The position numbers were made by a program, and so were the translations under genes. This document shows positions 22,553 to 52,570 of a stretch of 64,000 bases of DNA, piece by piece. This stretch comes from a phage, in assembly GCA_033580375.1 (NCBI GenBank), contig GCA_033580375.1_4527.1. The stretch is one strand, 5' to 3'. The notes below the pieces were generated by a model. That model saw only the letters and a program-made list of their open reading frames with translations, was not told the DNA's origin and searched no databases. How positions within the stretch are numbered: position 1 is the stretch's first letter; each line of letters starts with the position of its first letter.

Positions 22553-23653
22553 TTACGCTGTGAAGATTTTATCCCACATTGCAACAACTGCATCTCGGTT
22601 ATACTTCTTCCATACTGCTTCAGCACGTTTAACTCGAGCTTCGTACGTGTCAGTGAATTCTAATACAGCTTTTGTGTAAAGCGCAACTACTTCTTTCTTA
22701 GGAGTAGAGGAATCAATTTCTACACGCACAGTATCTGGGTCATATTCGAATGTCGCATGCGGATAATCCTTAAAAACTAACTGAATTACAGGGACACCTT
22801 TAGAGATGGCTTCAATAGAACTATTCTCTACCGTACCCGTGTCAGGACACGTATTAATAAGTGCTTTAGCTGTTTTAAGACGTTCCATGATTTCACTGTG
22901 TGGAGCATCAATAATAACAGGATACTTAGCTGGTGGTGCCCATTTGCTTGGACAATAACCAATACCATTTTCGCCTAGTGCTTTAATCGCTTCAAGAGCA
23001 ACATCAGTACGACGCATCTTAGTGTCATAACGTTGAGCACTAATAATCAAATCAGTTGCTGGAAGAACTTCAGGTTTCTCATTCAAACAAATAACCGGAT
23101 AATCTTCGGCTTCAAACAACGGATTTGCTCGCCAATAATCATAATCAATTTTGTCAGTCAGACCCGAAGTCATATAACAATATTTACGTTCAAATTCACG
23201 GAAGGCTTTAGTAGGAGCATAACTCTTACCACCATTCTTATGAATTTGAATAGTCTGGTCCCAAATTTGAACAATGCCACGAGATACCGGTTCAAATGGT
23301 GTTGCCATAAAATTCTTATGAACTTTAGAGAGACCTGCGTCTTTAATTGCCTGAACGGTTAGTTTGGTCGGTTCCATTGTAACAACGAAATCGTACTCAT
23401 TAATGCCGGCTAGTTCAACAATCTTACGAGCCATAGTATAACTCATACCTAGACTGAATTTAGTCAGATGACCAACAGGATGGTGTGTAACTTTCCAATC
23501 ACCAAATGTGTCATTATCAAAACCAATATAATCAATATCAGCACCGATGGACACAAGATATTTCAACACATTTAAATGTACTGCTTCAAGACCACCTTGT
23601 ACACGCTCTGGGTTAAACGGGACTGCGCGAGATGGGATAAACATAACTTTCAT
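22553..23653 (-). CDS. Putative GT-B-fold glycosyltransferase (candidate DNA hmC glycosyl/arabinosyl-transferase)
   Basis: 366 aa at the rIIA-39 junction where T4 carries gene 60/mobA; C-terminal E..SIEAISKGVPVIQ resembles the GT1/GT4 E-x7-E donor-binding region; size typical of GT-B enzymes. Confidence 0.5.
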   Translation of the reverse strand: MKVMFIPSRAVPFNPERVQGGLEAVHLNVLKYLVSIGADIDYIGFDNDTFGDWKVTHHPVGHLTKFSLGMSYTMARKIVELAGINEYDFVVTMEPTKLTVQAIKDAGLSKVHKNFMATPFEPVSRGIVQIWDQTIQIHKNGGKSYAPTKAFREFERKYCYMTSGLTDKIDYDYWRANPLFEAEDYPVICLNEKPEVLPATDLIISAQRYDTKMRRTDVALEAIKALGENGIGYCPSKWAPPAKYPVIIDAPHSEIMERLKTAKALINTCPDTGTVENSSIEAISKGVPVIQLVFKDYPHATFEYDPDTVRVEIDSSTPKKEVVALYTKAVLEFTDTYEARVKRAEAVWKKYNRDAVVAMWDKIFTA

Positions 23654-34878: not shown

Positions 34879-35415
34879 TTAGTACCCATTATCCTGACGT
34901 TCAAAGTTGTGTTGGTTTTTCAAGTAGTAAAGTTTAAAGATTTCTTCAGCCGAAAGACCTAGACCCTGGAACATATTTAGAACGAAATGCAGAATATCAA
35001 TCATTTCAAATTTAATTTCAAGTTGGTCTTCAGGAGACAGTTCATCGATACGACGATTTCGATATTCAGCATGTTGTGCTTTCCAAGGCTTCCATACACT
35101 GCTGGCAGCTTTTTCACCATTGCTCATACCACCAAGTGAAGTCAGCAGTTCACGGAATTCATCATCAATATAATCTTTCTGATTACGCAGCCAATCAACA
35201 ACATCGCCAGCAGTGACCAATTCATCAGGATGTTTGTTATGTTCAGGCTTGTCATTTGCCAGACGAACCTGTAAAGATTTCTGCATATCAAGCATTACCT
35301 GCAGTGGGTCTTTATCTTCGTGAATCAGAGCATTAAAATAAGCTTCTTCTGCTTTATCAACACCAGAAATAAGTTGTGAACATTCATTAAAGTGTGCCAT
35401 TATTTTTCCTTTCAA
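34879..35415 (-). CDS. 56: dCTPase/dCTP pyrophosphatase gp56 (MazG-like)
   Basis: 178 aa (T4 gp56 171 aa); position between soc and primase. Confidence 0.8.
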   Translation of the reverse strand: MKGKIMAHFNECSQLISGVDKAEEAYFNALIHEDKDPLQVMLDMQKSLQVRLANDKPEHNKHPDELVTAGDVVDWLRNQKDYIDDEFRELLTSLGGMSNGEKAASSVWKPWKAQHAEYRNRRIDELSPEDQLEIKFEMIDILHFVLNMFQGLGLSAEEIFKLYYLKNQHNFERQDNGY

Positions 35416-42026: not shown

Positions 42027-43170
42027 GGTCGTTTTCTATATCTGCTGCAGATGGAGCATCAGAAGTTTTAACCGGAACTTTAGTTGTTGCTTTGCAATTA
42101 ATAAGGTCGTTAACTGCGTCATCAACTTCTTTAATAGAAGAGATAGCGCCTAGTTTATATTTAGTTTCAATTGCATCTCGGAAAGGTTTGTGTTTAAACA
42201 ACGGTCCCCAGAATTCTACGCAATCAGTAGCTTTAGCACGCCATGATTTCTCTTCACGAATCATTTCACCTGTTTCTTCGTCAAGGAATTCACGAGCATA
42301 CCAACCGGCTTTAGGTTTAACCACAAAACCAATTTCAGTTGCCATTTCTAACAAGCCACTGAATGGGTCAATACCGCCATCAAAATTAACCGTGATCGGG
42401 AAAGTAGATTTCTCTTTAACAGTACGAGATTTTTCTGCTTTCAACGTGAAGTCATAACCGGTCAATTCTGTACCTTCTTTAACCTGACGTTTAGAGATAA
42501 AGAATACAGTGTTAGCAGAGTAAAGAATACCTGTACCACCACCCATAATCTCTTTAGGATATAGTCCACCGATTTCCATTGCTGTATGGTTAATTGCAAC
42601 ACATGGAATATCTTTAATAGTCAGATACGGGGTCACAATACGGAACAGAGATTTAAGTGCCTTAGCACGAGACATATCACCTACGACTTTCTCGTTCAAT
42701 GCATCTTCGGTTTCTTTCTTAGATGCAGTATTACCGATTGAATCGATAAAGATAATAACTTTATCACCGCGTTCAATAGCGTCAAGCTGATTAGTCATAT
42801 CAACTTTAAGTTGTTCGACGGACTGAATTGGTGTGTGAACTACACGGTCTAAATCAACACCCATTGAACGAAAATAAGATTCTGAAGCACCGAATTCTGA
42901 ATCATAGAACAAACAAATTGCATCTTTATATTTCTTCATATACGCTGCAACCATGGTCAGCCCAAACAATGTTTTAAAATGTTTAGAAGGTGCAGCAAAA
43001 ATAGTCAAGCCTGATTGCAATCCTGCATTCAGAGCACCACCTAGTGCAATATTCAACATCGGAATACGAGTAGGGACTTCATCGCGATTATTAAACAGCT
43101 TAGACTTAGTCAAGTCTGCAGTCATTTTAGAAGTAGAAGCTTTAATCAGACGAGATTTTAAATCAGACAT
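41998..43170 (-). CDS. uvsX: RecA-like recombinase UvsX
   Basis: 390 aa (T4 UvsX 391 aa); N-terminus MSDLKSRLIKASTSK.TA.L.KSK.FN..D...RIPMLNIALGG; RecA core. Confidence 0.9.
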   Translation of the reverse strand: MSDLKSRLIKASTSKMTADLTKSKLFNNRDEVPTRIPMLNIALGGALNAGLQSGLTIFAAPSKHFKTLFGLTMVAAYMKKYKDAICLFYDSEFGASESYFRSMGVDLDRVVHTPIQSVEQLKVDMTNQLDAIERGDKVIIFIDSIGNTASKKETEDALNEKVVGDMSRAKALKSLFRIVTPYLTIKDIPCVAINHTAMEIGGLYPKEIMGGGTGILYSANTVFFISKRQVKEGTELTGYDFTLKAEKSRTVKEKSTFPITVNFDGGIDPFSGLLEMATEIGFVVKPKAGWYAREFLDEETGEMIREEKSWRAKATDCVEFWGPLFKHKPFRDAIETKYKLGAISSIKEVDDAVNDLINCKATTKVPVKTSDAPSAADIENDLDEMEDFDE

Positions 43171-43269
43171 TGTATTTTTCCATAGGCATCATTATATTTT
43201 ACTCATGTTTAAAAGATAAGATGATTATATACTAATGATTATACAGCATTTAAAACTTTAAACAGGCTC

Positions 43270-43818
43270 TTAACGAGCCCATTTGATGATTTCTGTAATC
43301 AAATCATTACGTTCGCTTGCATTAAATCCTATAACTTTGTTAGCACCATCATGATTAAGTAATTGATACGTTTGGATTTTGTTATGAATTGCAAACTCTT
43401 CAAAATGTGAAATGACTGTATTAAAACTGAGTGAAGACAAAGTAATAAGATCGTCTTCAAAACTTTCAGTCATTTCGTTACGTGTTAAAATAATTGTGAA
43501 CACGTCATGGTTTTGGCAAAGACGAACATAATCCTGCTCATAAACATCAAGAACCGAGTCCGCATCTTGTCGAATACGTCCATAAACCCAGTTACTAATA
43601 TATCCACGGTCTAACAGATAAATCTTAGTAGGGTCTAAATAATTCAACATCGTTTCGAAACAACCAACTTCATTTCGAGACTTAACATCGAAACGTCCAT
43701 CAACTGTTCGTTTAGGGAAATCAATCTTTACATATCTTTCACTAATTTCCATTATGACATTAATGAAAGTTGTTTTGCCGGCATTATCTGGGCCATCTAC
43801 TAAAATAATTTTAGCCAT
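43270..43818 (-). CDS. P-loop kinase-like protein (thymidylate/dNMP-kinase fold); function unknown
   Basis: 182 aa; Walker A ILVDGPDNAGKTT near N-terminus, DRGY motif (LLDRGYISNWVYG) like the DRY/DRX motif of nucleoside monophosphate kinases. Occupies the slot of T4 beta-gt. Confidence 0.5.
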   Translation of the reverse strand: MAKIILVDGPDNAGKTTFINVIMEISERYVKIDFPKRTVDGRFDVKSRNEVGCFETMLNYLDPTKIYLLDRGYISNWVYGRIRQDADSVLDVYEQDYVRLCQNHDVFTIILTRNEMTESFEDDLITLSSLSFNTVISHFEEFAIHNKIQTYQLLNHDGANKVIGFNASERNDLITEIIKWAR

Positions 43819-43819
43819 T

Positions 43820-44716
43820 TTATTCCTCGATTACGACATCTTCGTATTTAGGTATATTATACGGCGAAGAAATTAAAGCATTAAAGTAGATGAACTCACC
43901 AAGACCTGGATGGAATACTTCTTCAGGATTTTCGAAATATTGAATCTTCGGACGTCCTTTAAGAATTTGATAGTACTCAGTTTTAGTTGGTTTAAAAATT
44001 CGAATCAGCGCTTCTTCAGGATACTTATTTCTGTCGAAGCTATTATTTGGATCGGTTATATAAAGTGGTTGTCCTAATTGAATTGCACATTCAACCACTT
44101 GTTCAAAATGATAACACGGATCACTAATTCGAAATGGATGAAAAATACCATCTACATGAATAGGAGCCAAATCACCTACAAGACGCTGCATGATGGAAGG
44201 ACGTATAACTTTCTGCGTTACGATAATCTTATTATCTGCGCCAGCGTTAACCAGCACTTCTTTTTGACGTTCATTCAACACAGTAGTTTGAAGTGAACGA
44301 TTAACCGACAACATGTCGGTTTTTAAGAATTCGTCAATATAAAAACGTGGTTTATTAGGGTCTGCAGTGATATTGAAATTGAATTCTACATCAAAAGCGC
44401 CGTCATATCCAGTGATATCTGTGATTAGAAAATCACAATCATAATAAGCAATTAATGAATCAACAACAAATTCATTTTCAGACCAGAAATATTTACGAGT
44501 GTTATACGCGTTATCTTTATACCATAATGGAACAAACTTAAATTCTGGGAAAAGACGTTCACATTCTTTAATATCAGATGCATTACGTGGATATGTAATC
44601 ACATCACCCGGATTAGCACGGTGCAAATGAAGTTGGAAGTTGCCATCCTTAAGGATAGCATACTGTCCAGTTTCATAAGACCGCATACTCAAGATTGGTA
44701 CGCGGAAAATAGCCAT
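43820..44716 (-). CDS. hypothetical protein (298 aa) in beta-gt position; no motif recognised
   Basis: Track ORF tightly packed (2-nt gap to next gene, 1-nt overlap with gene 42 homolog). Confidence 0.4.
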   Translation of the reverse strand: MAIFRVPILSMRSYETGQYAILKDGNFQLHLHRANPGDVITYPRNASDIKECERLFPEFKFVPLWYKDNAYNTRKYFWSENEFVVDSLIAYYDCDFLITDITGYDGAFDVEFNFNITADPNKPRFYIDEFLKTDMLSVNRSLQTTVLNERQKEVLVNAGADNKIIVTQKVIRPSIMQRLVGDLAPIHVDGIFHPFRISDPCYHFEQVVECAIQLGQPLYITDPNNSFDRNKYPEEALIRIFKPTKTEYYQILKGRPKIQYFENPEEVFHPGLGEFIYFNALISSPYNIPKYEDVVIEE

Positions 44717-45432
44717 TAGTCAAGGAATCCTTTAACATAATCAAAATCACGTTCAAACACATGGGCACTTACCATGGTATGAGTATAATCACCAACTTCT
44801 ACACCGCATTCGTTAGCGATATAATGAAGTAATTTTCCTTGGAGATAAAAATCCAACTGCATAACAACAGCACAGTTCTGAGAACGCATATGACAGTGGG
44901 TATAAAGCTTACCATCACGAATATAATAAGTCACTGAGTCAGTACATGGATATTCAAGTGTTTCATCTGAATCAAGCAAAGCCTGATCAGAACTTTCTAG
45001 AATTTGGAACACAACTCTTCGAGAGTTAGGTTTTTCTTTAAGTTCTTTTAGAAGAGCTGGTAATTGAGCCGCAATGCGAGGACCATAGAAAGTGTTGAAG
45101 TTTGCAGGCAAAGCATCTGATTTTGGTTTAGAAATAAATTTAGCGACATTAGGATATGCCTTAAACGCTTCTTCTGCATCAGTACCACCGGAAATCATAA
45201 ACTTCCAGAAGTCTTCGGCATATTCATAAGATATGCGATTAATACGTGGGTCGGTCATTTTGAATGATGATGGAGTGTCAACAACTACTGTCATAGACCC
45301 AATTTCATTACAACGTCCAATACGAGAATCAGTTACGAATTCTGGGTTTTCTAAAATTTCACGATTGACTGCTTTAAATGCGGTTTGAAAATCTGCGGCT
45401 TTGATATATTTCATTGTGTTATGTTTTCCCAT
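44716..45432 (-). CDS. 42: dCMP hydroxymethylase (thymidylate-synthase superfamily), gene 42 homolog
   Basis: 238 aa; catalytic region YPCTDSVTYYIRDGKL...HMRSQN...MQLDFY aligns by eye with T4 gp42 FMCTNTVQYLIRDKKI...NMRSND...FRNDY (Cys148 nucleophile, Asp179 equivalent retained). Confidence 0.7.
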   Translation of the reverse strand: MGKHNTMKYIKAADFQTAFKAVNREILENPEFVTDSRIGRCNEIGSMTVVVDTPSSFKMTDPRINRISYEYAEDFWKFMISGGTDAEEAFKAYPNVAKFISKPKSDALPANFNTFYGPRIAAQLPALLKELKEKPNSRRVVFQILESSDQALLDSDETLEYPCTDSVTYYIRDGKLYTHCHMRSQNCAVVMQLDFYLQGKLLHYIANECGVEVGDYTHTMVSAHVFERDFDYVKGFLD

Positions 45433-45557
45433 GTTTACCTCAATACAATTTATTATATACTCAATTCGTAAAGCTTATTTGAATTTCTTGGCAATGTTGA
45501 TATAACGTAAAGCTTCAGCATCGATACTTCCAAGAACACTATGAAGAAATGCATCAG

Positions 45558-45713
45558 CTTAGTATTCTAATTGAACAGGTTCTTTAATCACTTTAGCCGC
45601 TTTGGTTTCAAACAGGCCCATAAGGGCCTTTTTAAGAATTTGTTCGTTAGTGTTCAGTTTCATAGTCAAAATCTCTTCATTAAGTTTATAATTAAAAGCT
45701 TTTCTAGAAATCA
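45558..45713 (-). CDS. small ORF (~51 aa) translationally coupled (ATGA) to the U32 gene; coordinates approximate
   Basis: Hand translation MISRKAFNYKLNEEILTMKLNTNEQILKKALMGLFETKAAKVIKEPVQLEY; start overlaps U32 stop. Confidence 0.25.
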
Positions 45714-46871
45714 TTCCGGGTACCTCAAAGCGTCATCAGAGTTAGTTATATCAATAATAGATATGGAGTTTTCTGCTAACCCGTTTTTAGATAATTGACG
45801 TTTGTAATATCTTTCACAATATGTACACGTTGACCCACAGATTTCATTAGCACAATCGAAATCCGGATGTCTGAACCACCTTTTTTCTAAAAAGCCATCT
45901 AACAAAGAGGTTTCAATATTTACTGTATGTGAAAACTCAGTCTCATTTTCAAGAGTGAAAATAGTCTCTAAAGGCTTCCACAGTTCTAACAAATTACCTT
46001 CAAACTTTTCAGAAGCGTATGCTTCAAGAACTTTCAAAATGTAGTCTGTGCTACCTGTACGTCCTGAAACTTTGAATTGAGTGATACCAATATCATTATA
46101 AAGTTTCAAATCTTGAGGACGAACAAAACGAGTTCTCAGCCAGTTAAATGGGTCTGTATCACGAGCTTTAATGCAGTGTTGCATTGGATATCCATTTAAG
46201 GATTTAGCATCATCAGCGGTAACATCAGTACTATGGAAAATATAGCAAGAGTCACGATAACTACAATGTGTTGTATACCCTTTACCAGCATTAGAACAGA
46301 ACTCATTTACAAGAACTTCAAATATTATATTGTTCTTATTGCAAAACTCTGCTGCACGCTTCAGGAAAGAAACTGAACGGTTCTTATGAATTCCACAGCA
46401 GACCTTTTTGATATTATATTGGTCATGCAAGTATTTGATTTGAGTTACGGCATCAACATGTAGAATTGTTGAAACTTCAATCTCAATATCTTTATTGACT
46501 TCACGAACAATTTCCATAACAACAGGGTTAGCGATAGTAATACGCCATACACCTATTGACCAAAGATACTGAACATAATCCTGAATAGCTTTCTTCTTCC
46601 ACTCAACTAGTTCTCTTTTTGAACCAGGATTTATCGTGTTGAGTGTATAGTTAAAGCAAATACCTAATTCGTTACAACGTTTAACATAGTCTTCTAACAT
46701 TTTTTTGTCAACGTCAGGAAGCCTAAAATCAGGTCTGGCTGCTACAAAAGCCATTTCTCTTGTAGAGCCATATACTTCGTTTATCAAGCTATTAGGATAA
46801 GTTTTATTGAGCTCTACGATTTTATCAAGAAGAGCTAAATCAAAATTCGTTCCGATTTTAAAAGTATTCAT
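45711..46871 (-). CDS. Peptidase-U32-family protein (RlhA/TrhP/UbiU-like putative oxygen-independent hydroxylase)
   Basis: 386 aa; N-terminal TIM-barrel signature NEVYGS...FVAARPDF...ICFNYTLNTI (cf. U32 DAVY.G...NAR.F...YVTLNTL), central ITIANPVVMEIVRE...EIEVS and Cys cluster EFCSNAGKGYTTHCS, plus C-terminal CANEICGSTCTYC. Confidence 0.6.
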   Translation of the reverse strand: MNTFKIGTNFDLALLDKIVELNKTYPNSLINEVYGSTREMAFVAARPDFRLPDVDKKMLEDYVKRCNELGICFNYTLNTINPGSKRELVEWKKKAIQDYVQYLWSIGVWRITIANPVVMEIVREVNKDIEIEVSTILHVDAVTQIKYLHDQYNIKKVCCGIHKNRSVSFLKRAAEFCNKNNIIFEVLVNEFCSNAGKGYTTHCSYRDSCYIFHSTDVTADDAKSLNGYPMQHCIKARDTDPFNWLRTRFVRPQDLKLYNDIGITQFKVSGRTGSTDYILKVLEAYASEKFEGNLLELWKPLETIFTLENETEFSHTVNIETSLLDGFLEKRWFRHPDFDCANEICGSTCTYCERYYKRQLSKNGLAENSISIIDITNSDDALRYPE

Positions 46872-46929
46872 TTTTTTGCATCTCGCGTTAATTGATGCGA
46901 TGGGTTTTTTGCAGGTCTTACTTAAATTA

Positions 46930-47331
46930 TTATAGATTCGGTTTATACGATTTAAATGTTTCGAATTCGCCTTTATTCATAAGAGCTTTGAATTCGTCAG
47001 GACGCATAGCTTTGTCGTCGATAATCCAATCATATACTGGTTTATGTGTTAGCAAATTATGGTACTTCAAACCAATGTTTTCCAAGTTCTGAATCAGACT
47101 TGGGAGAATGTCAATTGCTATACGACCAGGACCTACTGACTTCATACCACGAGCAGTGTAAAGCGTTATGGTATGCCCTGCATCATACAGGGCATTAATG
47201 GCGGTCACCATTTCGACGTCTGGTTTGAAGTTCGCGTAATCACGATTGTTATTCCATTCCGTGATGCAATCATCGACATCAAAACAAAGATTAAGCATGT
47301 TTTCTACACGGCGCATTAGATTCGTTCCCAT
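46930..47331 (-). CDS. HAD-superfamily phosphatase (KdsC-like sugar-phosphate phosphatase)
   Basis: 133 aa; HAD motif I FDVDDCIT, motif II LYTAR, motif IV YDWIIDD. Confidence 0.6.
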   Translation of the reverse strand: MGTNLMRRVENMLNLCFDVDDCITEWNNNRDYANFKPDVEMVTAINALYDAGHTITLYTARGMKSVGPGRIAIDILPSLIQNLENIGLKYHNLLTHKPVYDWIIDDKAMRPDEFKALMNKGEFETFKSYKPNL

Positions 47332-49001
47332 TGATGAGTGATATCGCCACCGATTGGACGATAGGAAACACCAGTTTCTTTATCAGTTAGTACCCATTTA
47401 CCAGGATTTTTTGTAATCAGAGTAGCCGTTACAGGTTCTGCTACGTCATAACTAATAGAGCCGTCTTGAAGTACACGACCCATGTTACGTAATTGCTTAG
47501 TCAGAAGTTCCATACCTTTATAATATGCGGCTACCGCTTTAAGTGGATTATTCTTGAAATAACCACCTAATGCAATCCAGATAATCGCCACTGCCAAATG
47601 ATGATACTCGTTAAACGAACTCATCTTTCCATATTTGTAAACTAATGGATTGATGTTAATAGTCACATTACAAGTTGTTTCGTCAATAGTAAACTGTCCC
47701 CAGGTCGGATTAGCATTGAATTCATCATAACCTGAAACAGCATAAAGCACTTTAGCTTCATCGTACAATTTTGGCCCGTAAATCTTGGTTTCACCAAAAT
47801 ATCCACGAGGGTCGATAAACTTGACTTCGCCGTTATCAGTAATCATAGTATTACTGAAGTTCGGGTCACCGTGAATAACAGAGTACTGTCCCTGAGAACG
47901 GTTATGATAACGAATAAGGTGTTCTAAAGCTTGTTTCAACATTGGCTTCAGACGTCCAATCTTAGTGTAGTTCACATGTGTGATTTTACCAAATGAATCA
48001 ATCAATGGTTGAATGCTTTCACAACGATCAATAACTTTCGTATAGAATTCTTTAGTGAAATCACGACGAACAGTTTCAGGACTTACAAAATAAATGTCTG
48101 TGCTGAATTTCAGTGCATCTAAAATTGCATCAACAATTTGTGGACGAGCAAGACTTGATTTGGATTTAATATATTCAAATGCTGGCTTACCTTTAATGCG
48201 TTCCATTTCAAAGTTATTTTCATTAACAGAAACTAACTGAGGAACTGAATCTGATTTTACTTTCAAATACCATGAAATCTCATCTTTTTGAAGAGCTCGT
48301 CCCTGTTCTGTTAATGCGAATTTAGTTACAGTTTCTTCACCAATTTCAACTGCATTAAAACTACGATTAAGTTCACGAACTTCATGAGCCTTTTCAAGTT
48401 TAGGCATATCACCTAAATCAATTAGATTCATAAGCTCTGATTTATTGAATGCACTGCCGTAAAGGAATTCTACAAAATCACGTCCTTTACAGTATTCGTG
48501 AATTTCCTCGTCAGTAGAACCCATGTAGAATTCCCAGTCTTTGAACTGATAAATTCCTACAACATTACCGCCTGTTGAACCTACGTTAGTGATATTTTCA
48601 CCATCGAAATTATATCGACATTCATCACCCTTAACATAGATTGCGTTAACATTCCAAGACCATGAACCAAAATCTGGAATAATATCACACCAGTTAACAA
48701 CTACGTTATGGCCGTCTAAATCTTTATGTAATTTAGCAAGAGCATAAGCAGAACCATACGCTTCATCAACTGTACGAATAGTCACATTGAACCCTTCTTG
48801 CTCACAATAAGCTCGAACAGTTTCAGCAAATTTTGAATGAACTACTACAATAATTTCATCTGCACCAAGGTCAGAATAAATTGTATACAAATTGCTCAGA
48901 ATAGTGTCTTGTTTATAGTTCACAAGAACTTTTGGAATATGGTGAGTAATTGGATATAAACGAGTTGCCAGTCCAGCACCAAGAATAACAGCTTTTTTCA
49001 T
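47316..49001 (-). CDS. Bifunctional sugar-1-phosphate nucleotidyltransferase (N-terminal) / sugar kinase (C-terminal, APH/ChoK-like)
   Basis: 561 aa; N-terminus KAVILGAGLATRLYPITHHIPKVLV matches the RmlA/GalU G-x-G-T-R-L signature; C-terminal HGDPNFSNTMITDNGEVKFIDPRGYFG resembles the catalytic loop of aminoglycoside/choline/anomeric-sugar kinases. Confidence 0.7.
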   Translation of the reverse strand: MKKAVILGAGLATRLYPITHHIPKVLVNYKQDTILSNLYTIYSDLGADEIIVVVHSKFAETVRAYCEQEGFNVTIRTVDEAYGSAYALAKLHKDLDGHNVVVNWCDIIPDFGSWSWNVNAIYVKGDECRYNFDGENITNVGSTGGNVVGIYQFKDWEFYMGSTDEEIHEYCKGRDFVEFLYGSAFNKSELMNLIDLGDMPKLEKAHEVRELNRSFNAVEIGEETVTKFALTEQGRALQKDEISWYLKVKSDSVPQLVSVNENNFEMERIKGKPAFEYIKSKSSLARPQIVDAILDALKFSTDIYFVSPETVRRDFTKEFYTKVIDRCESIQPLIDSFGKITHVNYTKIGRLKPMLKQALEHLIRYHNRSQGQYSVIHGDPNFSNTMITDNGEVKFIDPRGYFGETKIYGPKLYDEAKVLYAVSGYDEFNANPTWGQFTIDETTCNVTININPLVYKYGKMSSFNEYHHLAVAIIWIALGGYFKNNPLKAVAAYYKGMELLTKQLRNMGRVLQDGSISYDVAEPVTATLITKNPGKWVLTDKETGVSYRPIGGDITHQWERI

Positions 49002-49041
49002 GTTGAAGTCCTCATTGGTAAGTAGGAGTATTGTACACTAT

Positions 49042-49185
49042 TCTAGTTAAAGCATTCATACTTTGCTTGTAGTCCAATCATAATCCATCCAATTACAAGT
49101 GTTGGAATCATTACTGGAGCCGTTAAGCTCCAGTAGATAGTCATGACAAGCATCAATAGTAAAAGTCCTATTGTTATTGCTTTCA
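49042..49185 (-). CDS. small hydrophobic membrane peptide (~47 aa), ATGA-coupled to the SIS-domain gene; coordinates approximate
   Basis: Hand translation MKAITIGLLLLMLVMTIYWSLTAPVMIPTLVIGWIMIGLQAKYECFN. Confidence 0.3.
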
Positions 49186-49818
49186 TTGCTCGCCTCGTAA
49201 CATGGCACCTAGAGCACCGCCAGGGTGGAACTTAAGGAAATCATTAGAGGTAAATCCACGTTCAGACGAAAGGTTGATAGCAAACGTATCGATAAGCGCT
49301 AACAACAATGTAGTGGACATGGTCGGAGCTAAAGAGTTCTCGTCAACTTCTACCGCGATACCGGTACAGAACGTATAATCAAAAAGAGCTTCGTATTCTT
49401 GCGGAATGTCAGGGTTACAATGTAACAGAATCTGTTTAACCTGAGGACGAATCATACGAAGATGTTTAGCAACACCTATCATTTCTTCAGTCTTACCAGA
49501 ACGACTGATGTGAACTAATACATCATTAGGTGCAATAAATCCTGCGTCGCCATGAGAATAATGCCCAGTGTTCAAATACATGCTAGGAATACCGAGTGAA
49601 GCAAATGTCTCAGAAGCTTTAGTTGCAATATTAGCATTCTTACCAACACCTGTAATAATTACACGACTTTCATAATTACTCAGTCCAGGGCGTCGAAGAG
49701 TTTCAAGAATAGCATTATAACGAGCAGGGTTTTGACTAATTACTTTGGCCATAGCGGCCAAAGAAGAAGCTTGTTTTATGATTGCGTCAATAGCGATAGT
49801 AATAGGAGTAGTTTTCAT
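49183..49818 (-). CDS. SIS-domain sugar-phosphate isomerase (KpsF/GutQ/KdsD-like arabinose-5-phosphate isomerase, no CBS domains)
   Basis: 211 aa; SIS motifs VIITGVGKNANIATKASETFASLGIPS...HGD...DVLVHISRSGKTEEM and C-terminal HPGGALG. Confidence 0.7.
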   Translation of the reverse strand: MKTTPITIAIDAIIKQASSLAAMAKVISQNPARYNAILETLRRPGLSNYESRVIITGVGKNANIATKASETFASLGIPSMYLNTGHYSHGDAGFIAPNDVLVHISRSGKTEEMIGVAKHLRMIRPQVKQILLHCNPDIPQEYEALFDYTFCTGIAVEVDENSLAPTMSTTLLLALIDTFAINLSSERGFTSNDFLKFHPGGALGAMLRGEQ

Positions 49819-49858
49819 ATTTCTCTCATTTAATTAGTTTACCGTCCTTGGCATTATA

Positions 49859-52570
49859 TCAAAAATCGAACATATCGAATAGAGATGCTTTCTTCTCGTA
49901 ATCGAGTTTCGCTGCTGATGTGAATCCTTCAAGTGGTTTAATAAATGTCTTCTCAAGGAGAACAGTGTAGTCCATCCAATGAAGTACATCATCTTTGATT
50001 AAATCAGTGATTTCAGTACCAGAAGGCCATGCGATACATTTATCACCGAACGGGTTTCCTTCACGTAAAGGCAGAACATATACTTTTTCACCTTCTACAA
50101 CTTGTGGTGCATCGATATTACCTTTGATAGCCCGGTTATACGTCAGAATTCCACGAATATGGAACGGACATTTAGGACCAGGGAATCCACCTACATCATA
50201 TTTAGCAATGTTATTCGCAGAAGATACCGACGCGATGCTAATATAATTCAATTGACGGAATTCTTTTTCAAACTCTTTAAAATATTCTTGTAATGATTCT
50301 TCACCTTCTTGAAGCATACGACGAATACATTCTTTAAGAGCTTTCTGTACCGCTTTAGGAGTTGAAGATTTCTGTGTTTCGAGACCCATGATTTTGAGTT
50401 TAGGCTCAGCGTAACGAGTACCTTCCATATCCCACACGTTTAATGCATAACGTTTCTTACCAGTCCAGAATCCGCCAATACCTTTAGAACCGAGCGGAGG
50501 ACCAGCGATAGCTTCTCGGTCCATGAACATTAAGTGTTGTTTATTGTTCATGTATTCACACATTTCACGGAAACCTCTATCAATAGCCGGTTCCATACGT
50601 TCACGAGCGAACTTATCTAAGAAGTCTACCCAATGGTTGGTATCACGGAATTTAGATTCACCAACCTTATCAATAATTTTATCTGCAGATACATAAATGG
50701 AGTCTGTATCACCATAAAGAACGAAAGCTTCACCTTCTGTACCACAAACTTCGTTCAGATATTCATTAACTTTACGTTCAATCCACTGTAAAGCCATTTG
50801 CCCGAATGTTGTGATTGCAGTAGCATTACGCAAATCGTAATAACGGAACCAAACGTTTCCAAGTGCACCATAAAGCGAGTTGATGAGTAATTTACGGTTA
50901 ATCTGTGCAGTCATACCTGCAACTTCAGTACGTTGAGCTCTAAACAACATTTCATTAAGAGATTTAGCAGACAACTTTTTAATCTTTTCTTTAATCTCGT
51001 CAGTGAAGTCGAAACGATAATCAACATCTAATGGTTCATCAACAGAAAGATTAGGATTATGCAATGCCTCTTTAATTATTTCACCATTACGTTGAGCTGC
51101 AAGCATGTAACCTTTATGTTCTTTACGCTGATTAAAGACCTTAGTGATTTCGGTTGGAACTACACCATCACGGTCTTTATAATACATCATGCCATTAGGA
51201 GAGCAACTGTACACATCTGAAGGACGTTCAGCAACAGCGTTAATATAATCATGCAATGGAGCTACTTTAAACGTTCCTGCTATTGTTTCTGGGCTAATAT
51301 TCACTTGGCGAATAATACTTGGATACAGAGATGTAAGGTCGAAACTCATTACATATTTGTATCGATTTGGAATAGGTTCCTTAACAAAAGCGCCAGGATA
51401 AGGTTGAACCGGGTGAGAACGACCTTGTGGAATCACCTTGTTCTGCTCTTTAAGGCTATTAAAAATAATAGCATCCCATGTTTTAATTGGGCTAAACACA
51501 GATTGAATCTGTATCTTAGCATAATAACCCATGTCCAAACTCAAGTTGATGAACTGACGCTTAGCATCAATTTGCAATACACGATACACGTCGATAATGT
51601 TATAAGAAATATATCGTTGGTGATTGCTTTCACGAAGCTTAGAAATAGGGCCTTCATATTTCAGTTTACCAACGTTCAATTCAAATTCTGAAATGTAATC
51701 CAGAGAATACGACGGTTGATTGGTAAAAGAGAATTTTTTGTAAAGGTCAATGTAATCAAGAACAGAGATACCGAACAATGTAATGATTTCACGAGAACCA
51801 TACATGTTTTCGATAACTTTAACACGAGTTTTACGATGTGGTGATAAACGTTTCGCAGTAGATTCGCCAAAAATATTCTTGATTCGGTTATACACATATG
51901 GAATATCAAATGACTCAACGTTCCATCCAGTCAAAATGACAGGAGTTTTCTGTTGCCAGAAGTTGAGATATTCCATCAACAATTCTTTTTCGTTATCGAA
52001 CGGCATATAAATGATTTTATCAATAATTTCGGATGGAACTTCATCACCACCTTGTTCTTGAAGCTTAGCCGCAATTTCGATAGACCATTCTTCCACATTA
52101 CCATATGGAGAATTCAATAGATCAAATACGTAGAACCTGTCGTCAATTGAGTCATAATGGGTGATAGCATCAATCGGATGTTTTGCTTGTGACGGCTCAG
52201 GGAACCCATCCGGAGATGTTACTTCGATGTCGAAGTTAGCCACACGAATTTTTGTATGGTCGTATTTGATTTCATAGTTATAAGTGTCAGACAAATACGC
52301 TAATTTGAAATCGTCCATGCCAAGTGCTTCAAGTCCGATATCTTCCATGCGTTTAATCCATTGGGAGGCATCACGCATATTAGCGAACAACTTACGAGTA
52401 CATGGCTTACCGTAGATATCGAAATATTTCGTAGCCTGACTTTCTGGACAATGAGCAAACAGTGATGGTTTATATTCTACTTCACGAGTACGTTCACGGC
52501 CGTTAGAATCGATGTAACGTTCAAAAATTGAATCACCGATCTGTTCAACCGTTAAGTAAAATTCTTTCAT
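49859..52570 (-). CDS. 43: DNA polymerase gp43 (family B, with 3'-5' exonuclease)
   Basis: 903 aa (T4 gp43 898 aa); MKEFYLTVEQIGDSIFERYID N-terminus, exo motifs (FDIE), pol motifs (SLYPSII, YGDTDS). Confidence 0.95.
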   Translation of the reverse strand: MKEFYLTVEQIGDSIFERYIDSNGRERTREVEYKPSLFAHCPESQATKYFDIYGKPCTRKLFANMRDASQWIKRMEDIGLEALGMDDFKLAYLSDTYNYEIKYDHTKIRVANFDIEVTSPDGFPEPSQAKHPIDAITHYDSIDDRFYVFDLLNSPYGNVEEWSIEIAAKLQEQGGDEVPSEIIDKIIYMPFDNEKELLMEYLNFWQQKTPVILTGWNVESFDIPYVYNRIKNIFGESTAKRLSPHRKTRVKVIENMYGSREIITLFGISVLDYIDLYKKFSFTNQPSYSLDYISEFELNVGKLKYEGPISKLRESNHQRYISYNIIDVYRVLQIDAKRQFINLSLDMGYYAKIQIQSVFSPIKTWDAIIFNSLKEQNKVIPQGRSHPVQPYPGAFVKEPIPNRYKYVMSFDLTSLYPSIIRQVNISPETIAGTFKVAPLHDYINAVAERPSDVYSCSPNGMMYYKDRDGVVPTEITKVFNQRKEHKGYMLAAQRNGEIIKEALHNPNLSVDEPLDVDYRFDFTDEIKEKIKKLSAKSLNEMLFRAQRTEVAGMTAQINRKLLINSLYGALGNVWFRYYDLRNATAITTFGQMALQWIERKVNEYLNEVCGTEGEAFVLYGDTDSIYVSADKIIDKVGESKFRDTNHWVDFLDKFARERMEPAIDRGFREMCEYMNNKQHLMFMDREAIAGPPLGSKGIGGFWTGKKRYALNVWDMEGTRYAEPKLKIMGLETQKSSTPKAVQKALKECIRRMLQEGEESLQEYFKEFEKEFRQLNYISIASVSSANNIAKYDVGGFPGPKCPFHIRGILTYNRAIKGNIDAPQVVEGEKVYVLPLREGNPFGDKCIAWPSGTEITDLIKDDVLHWMDYTVLLEKTFIKPLEGFTSAAKLDYEKKASLFDMFDF

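What the first reader, a model, noticed from the sequence alone, without database searches (positions are those of the whole stretch)
46930..49818. Phage-encoded three-gene module that looks like a complete free-pentose to NDP-pentose pathway (SIS isomerase, HAD phosphatase, fused kinase/nucleotidyltransferase)
Three adjacent co-directional genes directly downstream of the DNA polymerase gene encode (i) a SIS-domain protein with KpsF/GutQ-type arabinose-5-phosphate isomerase motifs, (ii) a small HAD phosphatase with the DxDx(T/V) motif, and (iii) a 561-aa fusion of an RmlA/GalU-type nucleotidyltransferase with an APH/choline-kinase-like sugar kinase. The logical chemistry is ribulose-5-P -> arabinose-5-P -> free arabinose -> arabinose-1-P -> NDP-arabinose, an activated sugar E. 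coli does not normally make. In a phage that keeps dCTPase (gp56) and dCMP hydroxymethylase (gp42) but lacks both T4 glucosyltransferases, this is the likely donor supply for glycosylating hmC DNA. I recall arabinosyl-hmC being reported for RB69-like phages, so this may be that system; the complete gene-by-gene pathway assignment here is inference.
Basis: partly seen in the sequence, partly recalled or inferred. Interest (0 to 1): 0.85.

Follow-up and report, generated by a model that had tools for sequence, protein, structure and literature searches.

The report
Known phage UDP-arabinose supply module
These three genes are the already published RB69-type pathway that makes activated arabinose to decorate the phage's modified cytosines, so the finding is real but not new; the unassigned iron-sulfur 'U32 peptidase' gene next door is the part still worth an experiment.

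Summary
The three ORFs exist exactly at 46930-49818, all on the minus strand downstream of DNA polymerase. The true order is SIS isomerase, then nucleotidyltransferase/kinase fusion, then small HAD phosphatase. The domain calls hold up. The window is a Mosigvirus, and these proteins are 96-99% identical to RB69 gp55, gp52:53 and gp51.

The pathway is published (Thomas 2018; Lee et al. NAR 2026, citing He et al. 2026 and Mahler et al. 2025).
- Reported route: arabinose-5-P, then arabinofuranose-1,5-bisphosphate (kinase), then Araf-1-P (HAD), then UDP-Araf. There is no free arabinose.
- The acceptor is 5-hydroxycytosine, not hmC. The "gp42" homolog here is 100% identical to RB69 gp48, an O2/flavin-dependent 5-hydroxy-dCMP synthase.

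Side lead: the adjacent U32-family gene (45711-46871) has invariant cysteine clusters. Among E. coli U32 paralogs it is closest to RlhA, the 5-hydroxycytidine synthase. In other genera it is followed by a chorismate mutase, which makes prephenate, and it is missing from the Acinetobacter phage examined. It may be an O2-independent route to 5-hydroxycytosine.

Verdict: already known; low interest for the finding itself.

The parts
49183..49818 (-). Single-domain SIS arabinose-5-phosphate isomerase (RB69 gp55 homolog): ribulose-5-P to arabinose-5-P
   Evidence: Pfam SIS 38.8 bits. NCBIfam KpsF/GutQ 110.7 bits, covering model positions 2-153 of 268 only, so no CBS pair. PDB 3etn E 1e-24, with shared GxGK, HGD, SxSGxTxE, PT(T/M)ST and HPGGxLG motifs. 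97.6% identical to RB69 gp55.
48402..49001 (-). N-terminal sugar-1-phosphate nucleotidyltransferase domain of the 561-aa fusion (RB69 gp53 part; AfhE-like): Araf-1-P + UTP to UDP-Araf
   Evidence: Pfam NTP_transferase 39.1 bits. G8AGLATR14 motif. PDB 1jyk E 2e-5, also MurU and GalU-type enzymes. 99.1% identical to RB69 gp53. The domain boundary is approximate.
47316..48389 (-). C-terminal APH/choline-kinase-fold sugar kinase domain of the fusion (RB69 gp52 part): arabinose-5-P to Araf-1,5-bisphosphate, per the literature
   Evidence: AF2 pLDDT 94.7. Foldseek PDB 3ham E 2e-7, also choline/ethanolamine kinases. H377GDPNFSN384 and D397PRG are invariant in 60 homologs. 99.4% identical to RB69 gp52. 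Substrate taken from PMC13326640.
46930..47331 (-). Small HAD-fold phosphatase (RB69 gp51; AfhF-like): Araf-1,5-bisphosphate to Araf-1-P, per the literature
   Evidence: PDB 9iqw about 97% identical; 1xpj E 1e-10. NCBIfam TIGR01689 50.8 bits and HAD-IIIA 16.2 bits. Motifs D18VDDC and D105D106. 96.1% identical to RB69 gp51.
44716..45432 (-). Thymidylate-synthase-fold 5-hydroxy-dCMP synthase (RB69 gp48). It makes the acceptor base and is not a hydroxymethylase.
   Evidence: 100% identical to RB69 gp48. 98.7% identical to PDB 9iqc/9ir2. D169N and N177D signatures visible in the alignment. Activity shown for RB69 gp48.
43820..44716 (-). Candidate DNA arabinosyltransferase 1 (RB69 gp46:47, intact here as a single 298-aa ORF)
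   Evidence: 98-99% identical to the two RB69 fragments. PHROG 3891 E 7e-154. Assignment from PMC13326640 Table 1. No Pfam, NCBIfam or PDB sequence hit here.
22553..23653 (-). Candidate DNA arabinosyltransferase 2 (RB69 gp3 / ORF003c homolog)
   Evidence: tblastn 98.6% over 366 aa. ORF coordinates. Assignment from PMC6024577 and PMC13326640.
34879..35400 (-). dCTPase (gp56 homolog) that removes dCTP from the pool
   Evidence: tblastn 96.5% to RB69p028. ORF.
45711..46871 (-). U32-family, cysteine-rich (Fe-S type) protein (RB69 gp50). Function unassigned; proposed here as an O2-independent C5 hydroxylase.
   Evidence: Pfam Peptidase_U32 42.2 bits. Ten invariant or near-invariant Cys including C340-X4-C-X3-C-X2-C352. 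AF2 pLDDT 92.3 with best PDB match 5d88. hhalign best to RlhA. Chorismate mutase is the next gene in LC53 and Entb_45.
45559..45714 (-). Truncated RB69 ORF049c homolog, sitting in the slot that holds chorismate mutase in other genera
   Evidence: TAC to TAA at codon 52 relative to RB69. PHROG 8601 matched over positions 1-51 of 79. No CM_2 hit.
43270..43818 (-). Thymidylate-kinase-like P-loop kinase (RB69 gp45); role in the pathway not established
   Evidence: PHROG 761 E 2e-44. 97.8% identical to RB69 gp45.

Best explanation
The module is the Mosigvirus (RB69/HY126-type) supply line for UDP-D-arabinofuranose.

Proposed route, step by step:
1. The SIS protein isomerises host ribulose-5-P to arabinose-5-P.
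2. The C-terminal APH/choline-kinase-fold domain of the 561-aa protein phosphorylates C1 to give arabinofuranose-1,5-bisphosphate.
3. The small HAD phosphatase removes the 5-phosphate.
4. The N-terminal nucleotidyltransferase domain condenses Araf-1-P with UTP.
5. Phage glycosyltransferases (window 43820-44716 and 22553-23653) then put one or two arabinoses on 5-hydroxycytosine in DNA. That base enters the DNA because dCTPase plus the thymidylate-synthase-fold 5-hydroxy-dCMP synthase (44716-45432) replace dCTP with 5-hydroxy-dCTP.

The logic is that of the ADP-heptose pathway: SIS isomerase, bifunctional kinase/nucleotidyltransferase, and HAD bisphosphate phosphatase.

Shown here: gene anatomy, folds and motifs, near-identity to the characterised RB69/HY126 proteins, and fusion of all four activities in other organisms.
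Taken from the literature: substrates, order of steps, UDP as the carrier, and the identity of the modified base.
For: - ORFs and their tight packing.
- Family and fold assignments.
- 96-100% identity of every cluster protein to RB69.
- The HAD and thymidylate-synthase-fold proteins are 97-99% identical to solved structures 9iqw and 9iqc/9ir2/9iqu.
- The module is conserved next to the thymidylate-synthase homolog in 374 phage records, including Serratia LC53, Enterobacter Entb_45, JS98 and Acinetobacter AM101.
- Rosetta-stone fusions: proteins of 890-955 aa carry HAD, SIS, NTP_transferase and kinase in one chain.
- Literature: the pathway and AfhE/AfhF activities (PMC13326640 section 27); 5-hydroxy-dCMP synthase activity of RB69 gp48 with 18O2 labelling; arabinose in RB69 DNA and the first proposal of ORF055c and ORF53_52c (PMC6024577); 5-ara-dC and 5-ara-ara-dC in Mosigvirus NP (PMC13390438).
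Against: - Nothing was measured for this particular phage.
- The order kinase-then-phosphatase rests on one paper's summary of He et al. 2026, which I could not read. Table 1 of that same paper still carries the older wording, 'dephosphorylates Araf5p to Ara; phosphorylates Ara to Araf1p'.
- My computations cannot discriminate between the two orders.
- The kinase domain misses Pfam thresholds, and the HAD and SIS proteins score below the NCBIfam curated cut-offs.
- JS98-type phages have the fusion and HAD genes but no annotated SIS gene, so the isomerase is not universally phage-supplied.
Confidence: 0.85

Rival explanations
1. The HAD enzyme first dephosphorylates arabinose-5-P to free arabinose. 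The kinase then phosphorylates the anomeric carbon, and the nucleotidyltransferase makes NDP-arabinose. This resembles the MupP / AmgK / MurU salvage route to UDP-MurNAc.
For: - Anomeric kinases of this fold commonly take free sugars, and the nucleotidyltransferase half resembles MurU (NCBIfam MurU 24.9 bits; PDB 4y7t and 8hhd are weak hits).
- Table 1 of PMC13326640 still words the steps this way.
- Domain content and the four-domain fusions are equally compatible with this order.
Against: - The text of PMC13326640 section 27 reports, from He et al. 2026, that HY126 AfhE is a D-arabinose-5-phosphate kinase plus UDP-arabinose pyrophosphorylase, and that AfhF dephosphorylates Araf-1,5-P2.
- The window's proteins are 97-99% identical to that system.
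- The HAD protein's weak family affinity is to HAD-IIIA, the GmhB bisphosphate-phosphatase group.
Confidence: 0.1
2. The module is a host-directed 'moron' that feeds capsule, Kdo or LPS sugar metabolism rather than DNA modification. Database labels suggest this: 'capsule biosynthesis protein', 'phosphoheptose isomerase', 'GlmU'.
For: Annotations under the matches. PHROG category 'moron, auxiliary metabolic gene' for the SIS and HAD families. NCBIfam 'capsule biosynthesis phosphatase'.
Against: - The genes lie inside the replication gene block, between DNA polymerase and UvsX.
- They are always linked to the 5-hydroxy-dCMP synthase and DNA glycosyltransferase genes.
- Arabinose is found on the DNA of RB69 and of Mosigvirus NP.
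- The database labels are homology transfers that fall below curated cut-offs.
Confidence: 0.03

Closest known systems
RB69 gp55, gp52:53, gp51 and E. coli phage HY126 API, AfhE, AfhF (UDP-arabinofuranose pathway for arabinosyl-5-hydroxycytosine)
   Same: Same genes, same order, same neighbours. Amino-acid identity to RB69 is 96-99%. The HAD protein is about 97% identical to PDB 9iqw.
   Different: No functional difference detected. Here the fusion gene and the glycosyltransferase gene are intact single ORFs. The RB69 reference record splits each in two, which Thomas 2018 and Lee 2026 attribute to sequencing errors. The ORF049c homolog is truncated in this phage.
ADP-L-glycero-beta-D-manno-heptose pathway (GmhA, HldE, GmhB); established knowledge
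   Same: Same logic and same division of labour: a SIS ketose-aldose isomerase, a bifunctional kinase/nucleotidyltransferase that makes a sugar 1,n-bisphosphate, and a HAD phosphatase that removes the distal phosphate before nucleotide activation.
   Different: The kinase here has the APH/choline-kinase fold and the transferase is RmlA/GalU/MurU-like. Neither is the ribokinase-like and cytidylyltransferase-like pair found in HldE. The sugar is a pentofuranose, the carrier is UDP, and the acceptor is DNA.
AmgK-MurU (plus MupP) anomeric kinase / uridylyltransferase salvage route; established knowledge
   Same: An APH-like anomeric sugar kinase paired with a minimal MurU-type uridylyltransferase. 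MurU is among the hits (PMC13326640 Table 1).
   Different: In that route the proteins are separate and the phosphatase acts before the kinase on a 6-phosphate. Here the two are fused, and the kinase is reported to act on the phosphorylated sugar.
T4 glucosyl-hydroxymethylcytosine system (gp56, gp42, alpha- and beta-glucosyltransferases)
   Same: The same strategy: dCTPase plus a thymidylate-synthase-fold enzyme replaces C before replication, and sugars are added on the DNA after replication. The cluster sits at the same genomic position, between gene 43 and uvsX.
   Different: The base is 5-hydroxy-C made with O2 and flavin, not 5-hydroxymethyl-C made with folate. The donor is a phage-made UDP-arabinofuranose rather than host UDP-glucose. 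No relation to the T4 glucosyltransferases is reported (PMC6024577 abstract).
U32-family O2-independent hydroxylation factors RlhA, TrhP, UbiU/UbiV (for the neighbouring gene at 45711-46871)
   Same: Pfam U32 domain above threshold. U32 fold. Invariant cysteines. Best E. coli match is RlhA, which is needed for 5-hydroxycytidine in 23S rRNA (PMC5727448). In related phages a prephenate-forming chorismate mutase is the next gene, and prephenate is the O donor for UbiU/V (PMC10990095).
   Different: Cys spacing is C-X10-C-X5-C-X23-C plus a C-terminal C-X4-C-X3-C-X2-C, not the canonical C-X6-C-X15-C-X3/4-C. The protein is a single 386-aa chain. The presumed substrate is a deoxynucleotide or DNA rather than RNA or a quinone. 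No activity data exist.

Membership tests
RB69/HY126-type UDP-arabinofuranose (Afh) module | Orthology to RB69 gp55, gp52:53 and gp51 in the same gene order between DNA polymerase and uvsX | tested here: met
   97.6%, 99.1%/99.4% and 96.1% identity. Same order and neighbours.
RB69/HY126-type UDP-arabinofuranose (Afh) module | Linked 5-hydroxy-dCMP synthase carrying the D169N signature, plus DNA arabinosyltransferases | tested here: met
   Thymidylate-synthase homolog 100% identical to RB69 gp48, with RSQN aligned to RSAD. gp46:47 and gp3 homologs are present.
RB69/HY126-type UDP-arabinofuranose (Afh) module | Enzyme activities: arabinose-5-P kinase, 1,5-bisphosphate 5-phosphatase, UDP-Araf pyrophosphorylase | not testable with these tools
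   Known only from the summary of He et al. 2026 in PMC13326640.
KdsD/GutQ/KpsF arabinose-5-phosphate isomerases | SIS domain with conserved phosphosugar-binding and catalytic motifs | tested here: met
   Pfam SIS 38.8 bits against 25. Motifs shared with 3etn and 5uqi in the printed alignments.
KdsD/GutQ/KpsF arabinose-5-phosphate isomerases | C-terminal tandem CBS domains and a full-length score above the curated cut-off | tested here: not met
   211 aa. Matches model positions 2-153 of 268 only. 110.7 bits against a cut-off of 203.7. It belongs with the single-domain SIS proteins such as 3etn.
HAD superfamily phosphatases | Motif I DxDx(T/V) and motif IV acidic pair on a Rossmann-like core | tested here: inconclusive
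   Motif I is D18-V-D-D-C22, with Cys in place of T/V. Motif IV is D105-D106. No Pfam HAD hit. TIGR01689 scores 50.8 against 162, and HAD-IIIA 16.2 against 44.6. About 97% identical to solved structure 9iqw and related to 1xpj. Literature describes an Mg2+-dependent phosphatase.
Sugar-1-phosphate nucleotidyltransferases (PF00483; RmlA/GalU/MurU type) | N-terminal GxGxxR nucleotide-binding signature and a Pfam score above the gathering threshold | tested here: met
   39.1 bits against 21.2, covering residues 3-99 only. G8AGLATR14. GxxxRLxPxTxxxPKxL is nearly invariant in 60 homologs.
APH / choline-kinase-like kinases | Bilobal kinase fold with Brenner motif HxDxxxxN and a metal-binding Asp | tested here: met
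   By sequence only sub-threshold: Fructosamin_kin 17.1 against 22.4. By motif and fold it is met: H377GDPNFSN384 and D397 are invariant; Foldseek 3ham E 2e-7, prob 1.00, on a pLDDT 94.7 model.
ADP-heptose pathway enzymes (GmhA/HldE/GmhB) | Ribokinase-like kinase fused to a cytidylyltransferase-like adenylyltransferase | tested here: not met
   No such hits. The kinase has the APH/ChoK fold and the transferase is PF00483. This is a functional analogy only.
   Asn at that position. 100% identical to RB69 gp48, which makes 5-hydroxy-dCMP using O2.
U32 prephenate-dependent hydroxylation factors (for the neighbouring gene) | U32 domain plus four conserved Fe-S cysteines (C-X6-C-X15-C-X3/4-C) | tested here: inconclusive
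   U32 domain 42.2 bits against 22.4, with the U32 fold. Ten invariant or near-invariant Cys, but with different spacing. hhalign to RlhA gives probability 80.5%.
U32 prephenate-dependent hydroxylation factors (for the neighbouring gene) | Dependence on prephenate | not testable with these tools
   Indirect only. A CM_2 chorismate mutase is the next gene in 54 related phage records. It is not detectable in this window.

The most novel reading that the evidence does not exclude
The neighbouring U32-family gene may encode an O2-independent, prephenate-dependent cytosine C5 hydroxylation route. The gene lies at window 45711-46871 and corresponds to RB69 gp50, which is left unassigned in the papers I could read.

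In most non-Mosigvirus relatives it would work together with a phage chorismate mutase. It would supply 5-hydroxy-dCMP, or 5-hydroxycytosine in DNA, when the O2/flavin-dependent thymidylate-synthase-type hydroxylase cannot work, for example in the anoxic gut. That would make an aerobic/anaerobic enzyme pair like NrdAB/NrdDG, UbiI-H-F/UbiU-V and TrhO/TrhP.

The three-gene sugar module itself holds no novelty.
Probability: 0.4. Interest if true: 0.75.

Novelty: already known. Interest (0 to 1): 0.22.

Why it matters
Arabinosylated 5-hydroxycytosine shields these phages from many restriction enzymes and from CRISPR-Cas. It also makes them targets of type IV systems such as BrxU, so it bears on phage therapy and on phage engineering. 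All of that is already established for RB69, HY126, NP and DLP3. This window adds one more Mosigvirus genome carrying the intact cluster.

What could still matter is the open gap the known pathway leaves. The published hydroxylase needs molecular oxygen, yet these phages infect gut bacteria and carry anaerobic ribonucleotide reductase. If the adjacent U32/chorismate-mutase pair proves to be the anaerobic hydroxylase, two things would follow:
- It would explain how the modification is made without O2.
- It would give the U32 family its first nucleotide or DNA substrate, and a tractable in vivo assay.

Tried and rejected
- Pfam on the HAD protein gave nothing. The assignment was resolved through NCBIfam and PDB sequence search instead.
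- PDB sequence searches for the U32 protein and the 298-aa glycosyltransferase found nothing.
- He et al. 2026 and Mahler et al. 2025 are not held in the library. The step order and any statement they make about gp50 are therefore second-hand or unknown.
- The afdb50 fold library was unavailable.
- I tested whether the small ORF between the U32 and thymidylate-synthase genes (the ORF049c family) is a diverged chorismate mutase. There is no CM_2 hit even for the read-through 79-aa form, and BLASTP against the Entb_45 chorismate mutase gives E 6.9. The idea is rejected at this sensitivity.
- The promoter and terminator scan of 43000-50000 is no richer than shuffled sequence: 24 against 27 +/- 5.6, and 3 against 3.5 +/- 2.0. 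No regulatory claim is made.
- Base composition shows no island (GC 0.32-0.42).
- The 'T4 gp42' and 'capsule/LPS moron' readings were considered and rejected; see the membership table and rival explanations.
- Literature searches linking U32, prephenate or chorismate mutase to phage 5-hydroxycytosine returned nothing.
- Presence or absence of the T4 alpha- and beta-glucosyltransferases was not tested directly. The window covers only part of the genome, so I rely on Thomas 2018.

Full report
**1. Observation**

The region holds three co-directional minus-strand ORFs immediately downstream of the DNA polymerase gene (49859-52570):
- a 211-aa protein at 49183-49818;
- a 561-aa protein at 47316-49001;
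- a 133-aa protein at 46930-47331.

The order is SIS, fusion, HAD, not SIS, HAD, fusion. The fusion and HAD genes overlap by 16 nt, or by 1 nt if Met6 is the start, as annotated in RB69. Base composition is unremarkable. Consensus promoter and terminator matches do not exceed shuffled sequence.

**2. Domain assignments**

*SIS protein.*
- It passes Pfam SIS at 38.8 bits.
- It matches the KpsF/GutQ and KdsD NCBIfam models over their SIS half only, at 110.7 and 105.2 bits. These are below the full-length cut-offs because there is no CBS pair.
- Its best solved relatives are the single-domain phosphosugar isomerase 3etn (E 1e-24), 5uqi, and the E. coli KdsD SIS domain 2xhz. The GxGK, HGD, SxSGxTxE, PT(T/M)ST and HPGGxLG motifs are shared.

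*Fusion protein, N-terminal domain.*
- It passes Pfam NTP_transferase at 39.1 bits.
- It carries G8AGLATR14.
- It matches phosphocholine cytidylyltransferase 1jyk and GalU/RmlA/MurU-type enzymes.

*Fusion protein, C-terminal domain.*
- Only sub-threshold kinase Pfam matches were found.
- H377GDPNFSN384 (Brenner motif) and D397PRG are invariant across 60 homologs down to about 30% identity.
- An AlphaFold2 model of residues 205-561 has pLDDT 94.7.
- Its best PDB fold matches are APH(2'')-IIa 3ham (E 2e-7) and ethanolamine/choline kinases. This reproduces Table 1 of PMC13326640.

*HAD protein.*
- There is no Pfam hit.
- It matches NCBIfam TIGR01689 'capsule biosynthesis phosphatase' at 50.8 bits and, weakly, HAD-IIIA.
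- It is related to 1xpj (E 1e-10) and about 97% identical to a solved structure, 9iqw.
Motif IV is DD.

**3. Identity of the window**

The 6.5-kb cluster is 97-98% identical in DNA to many Mosigvirus genomes.

| Window protein | RB69 counterpart | Identity |
|---|---|---|
| SIS | gp55 | 97.6% |
| Fusion | gp53 / gp52 | 99.1% / 99.4% |
| HAD | gp51 | 96.1% |
| U32 | gp50 | 99.2% |
| Thymidylate-synthase homolog | gp48 | 100% |
| Glycosyltransferase | gp47 / gp46 | 98.9% / 98.3% |
| Kinase | gp45 | 97.8% |

The fusion gene and the glycosyltransferase gene are single ORFs here. This agrees with published statements that the RB69 reference splits are sequencing errors. The window also carries the RB69 gp3 homolog (22553-23653, 98.6%) and the dCTPase (34879-35400, 96.5%).

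**4. What is already published**

- Thomas et al. 2018 found arabinose on RB69 DNA. They proposed ORF055c and ORF53_52c as UDP-arabinose genes.
- Lee et al. (NAR 2026) showed that the modification is mono- and di-arabinosyl 5-hydroxycytosine with an ether link.
- The same paper showed that RB69 gp48 is a 5-hydroxy-dCMP synthase that takes its oxygen from O2 and binds a flavin.
- It also reports that gp55, gp52:53 and gp51 convert ribulose-5-P to NDP-arabinofuranose.
- Citing He et al. 2026 on phage HY126, it states that the bifunctional AfhE phosphorylates arabinose-5-P to the 1,5-bisphosphate and later makes UDP-arabinose. AfhF is described as an Mg2+-dependent phosphatase that yields Araf-1-P.
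- PMC13390438 independently reports 5-ara-dC and 5-ara-ara-dC in Mosigvirus NP. It calls the earlier hydroxymethyl assignment erroneous.

The window's thymidylate-synthase homolog shows the diagnostic D169N and N177D substitutions.

The free-arabinose step, the hmC acceptor and the 'gp42 hydroxymethylase' label are superseded.

One caveat: I could not read He et al. or Mahler et al.. Table 1 of the NAR paper still words the steps the old way. My computations cannot decide the order of the kinase and phosphatase steps.

**5. Independent support obtained here**

A homolog search with the fusion protein returned 320 proteins. Among them are chains of 890-955 aa that carry HAD, SIS and NTP_transferase Pfam domains together with the kinase region. 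In P0206 the order is HAD 9-178, SIS 258-385, nucleotidyltransferase 424-559, then the kinase region. P0206 lies on a contig with MutS7-HNH and an RNA polymerase Rpb2 gene, which looks like a giant virus. Fusion of all four activities in one polypeptide is classic evidence that the three phage genes form one pathway. The HAD domain in those fusions is of the HAD_2 type, not the small phage type, so the phosphatase role has been filled twice independently.

**6. How it works, and what it works like**

The best analogy is the ADP-heptose pathway. GmhA is a SIS isomerase. HldE is a bifunctional kinase/nucleotidyltransferase. GmhB is a HAD phosphatase acting on a 1,7-bisphosphate. The phage uses the same logic with unrelated kinase and transferase folds, so this is analogy and not membership.

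**7. The neighbouring gene: the only open point**

Between the HAD gene and the 5-hydroxy-dCMP synthase gene lies a 386-aa protein at 45711-46871.

*Family and fold.*
- It passes Pfam Peptidase_U32 at 42.2 bits.
- PMC13326640 lists it only as 'sugar or heterocycle reductase' and does not discuss it.
- Its AF2 model (pLDDT 92.3) best matches the U32 structure 5d88.

*Cysteines.* In 121 homologs down to about 48% identity, C158, C192, C203, C209, C233 and the C-terminal C340-X4-C345-X3-C349-X2-C352 are invariant, and C177 is nearly so (118 of 121). That is enough for two Fe-S clusters, although the spacing differs from the canonical U32 motif.

*Known functions of U32 proteins.* The characterised U32 proteins are all tied to O2-independent hydroxylation:
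- UbiU/V, with prephenate as the O donor (PMC10990095);
- TrhP, for 5-hydroxyuridine in tRNA;
- RlhA, for 5-hydroxycytidine in 23S rRNA.

*Comparison with the E. coli paralogs.* I compared the profile of the phage clade with the four E. coli U32 proteins.

| E. coli paralog | hhalign probability |
|---|---|
| RlhA | 80.5% (E 1.3e-5, 205 columns) |
| TrhP | 11.6% |
| UbiU | 4.4% |
| UbiV | 0.6% |

*Chorismate mutase neighbour.* In Serratia phage LC53 and Enterobacter phage Entb_45 the next gene is a chorismate mutase. It scores 44.6 and 40.9 bits on Pfam CM_2 against a cut-off of 27, and its stop and start codons overlap the U32 gene and the thymidylate-synthase-fold gene. Such a chorismate mutase is detectable in 54 phage records. 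That compares with 68 U32 records in the 80-90% identity band, which I take to be the non-Mosigvirus ones.

*Distribution.*
- The U32 gene occurs in 222 phage records, always at 80% identity or more. The fusion protein, by contrast, drops to 42-57% across the same genera.
- The listed hosts include Escherichia, Klebsiella, Shigella, Serratia, Proteus, Yersinia, Enterobacter, Providencia, Edwardsiella, Pectobacterium and Shewanella. From general knowledge, these are facultative anaerobes.
- The 57 Acinetobacter phage records that carry the sugar module do not appear among the listed U32 hosts. At most 3 of them could carry the gene.
- AM101 has no U32 or chorismate mutase gene in its cluster. 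The DLP3 cluster, gp76-83, has none either. DLP3 nevertheless makes tri-arabinosyl 5-hydroxycytosine.
- Metagenomic homologs at about 50-58% identity sit next to dCMP deaminase, thymidylate kinase, UDG and DnaE on a 466-kb contig. Others sit next to NT5C, deoxynucleoside kinase, nucleoside deoxyribosyltransferase and a second paralog.

*Reading.* The gene is dispensable for both the sugar and the aerobic base chemistry. It is strongly conserved, and it is linked to deoxynucleotide metabolism and to a prephenate source. The simplest reading is an O2-independent C5 hydroxylase that backs up the O2-dependent enzyme. These phages also carry the anaerobic ribonucleotide reductase nrdD (mentioned).

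*Against this reading.*
- JS98-type E. coli phages lack the gene.
- This window has no detectable chorismate mutase. The slot holds an ORF049c homolog that is truncated by a TAC-to-TAA change.
- No U32 protein has yet been shown to hydroxylate in vitro.
- The two papers I could not read may already address it.
- No held paper links U32, prephenate or chorismate mutase with this phage pathway.

**8. Verdict**

The system is already known. Interest for the finding as given is low. The most novel reading left open concerns the adjacent U32 gene, which I put at about 0.4 probability of being both correct and unreported.

Noticed in passing
window 45711-46871 (-); L001 5992-7502; L002 4989-6397: A U32-family, cysteine-rich protein (RB69 gp50) sits between the sugar genes and the 5-hydroxy-dCMP synthase gene. 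Its closest E. coli paralog is RlhA, the 5-hydroxycytidine synthase. In other genera it is followed by a bona fide chorismate mutase, and the AM101 and DLP3 clusters (Acinetobacter phages) lack it. It may be an O2-independent route to 5-hydroxycytosine.
   Followed up: yes
window 45559-45714 (-), continuing in frame to 45478: The RB69 ORF049c homolog (79 aa in RB69; PHROG 8601) is cut to 51 aa here by a TAC-to-TAA change at codon 52. The remaining 27 codons stay in frame and conserved. The ORF occupies the slot that holds chorismate mutase in Winklervirus and Kanagawavirus, but shows no detectable similarity to it.
   Followed up: partly
L011 7001-9781 (protein P0206); also P0208, P0209, P0212, P0216, P0229: Single polypeptides of 890-955 aa combine HAD, SIS, nucleotidyltransferase and kinase, the whole four-activity pathway in one chain. 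P0206 lies on a contig with MutS7-HNH and RNA polymerase Rpb2 genes, which looks like a giant virus of eukaryotes. One related chain (P0211: HAD and SIS domains on record, no NTP_transferase) comes from a eukaryotic transcriptome.
   Followed up: partly
L006 7447-9086; L009 7504-9083; L007 8001-14357: Homologs of the phage U32 protein at about 50-58% identity lie beside dCMP deaminase, thymidylate kinase, UDG and DnaE on a 466-kb contig. Others lie in a cluster with NT5C, deoxynucleoside kinase, an NMN transporter, radical SAM/SPASM, nucleoside 2-deoxyribosyltransferase and a second, divergent paralog. This suggests a wider, uncharacterised nucleotide-modifying role for this U32 clade.
   Followed up: partly
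window 47316-49001 and 43820-44716, compared with L005 4373-6059 and 8656-9556: The fusion gene and the glycosyltransferase gene are intact single ORFs here. The RB69 reference record splits each in two. This agrees with published re-sequencing showing that the splits are errors in the reference.
   Followed up: yes
window 43270-43818 (-): A thymidylate-kinase-like P-loop protein (RB69 gp45) is conserved at the end of the cluster in every genus examined. The gp1-type dNMP kinase is already reported to phosphorylate 5-hydroxy-dCMP, so the role of this protein is unexplained.
   Followed up: no
L003 (phage JS98) 5062-10175: Dhakavirus JS98 has the fusion, HAD, kinase, thymidylate-synthase-homolog and glycosyltransferase genes, but no annotated SIS isomerase and no U32 gene. 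A 166-aa ORF of unknown function precedes the fusion gene. These phages presumably rely on host KdsD/GutQ for arabinose-5-P.
   Followed up: no
window 49043-49153 (-), in the 181-nt gap between the SIS and fusion genes: By coordinate mapping from RB69 (not checked in the window's sequence), this gap corresponds to the 36-aa RB69 ORF054c. In LC53 the same position holds a 47-aa predicted membrane peptide. A 50-aa GTG ORF at 49056-49208 overlaps it and has no PHROG match.
   Followed up: no
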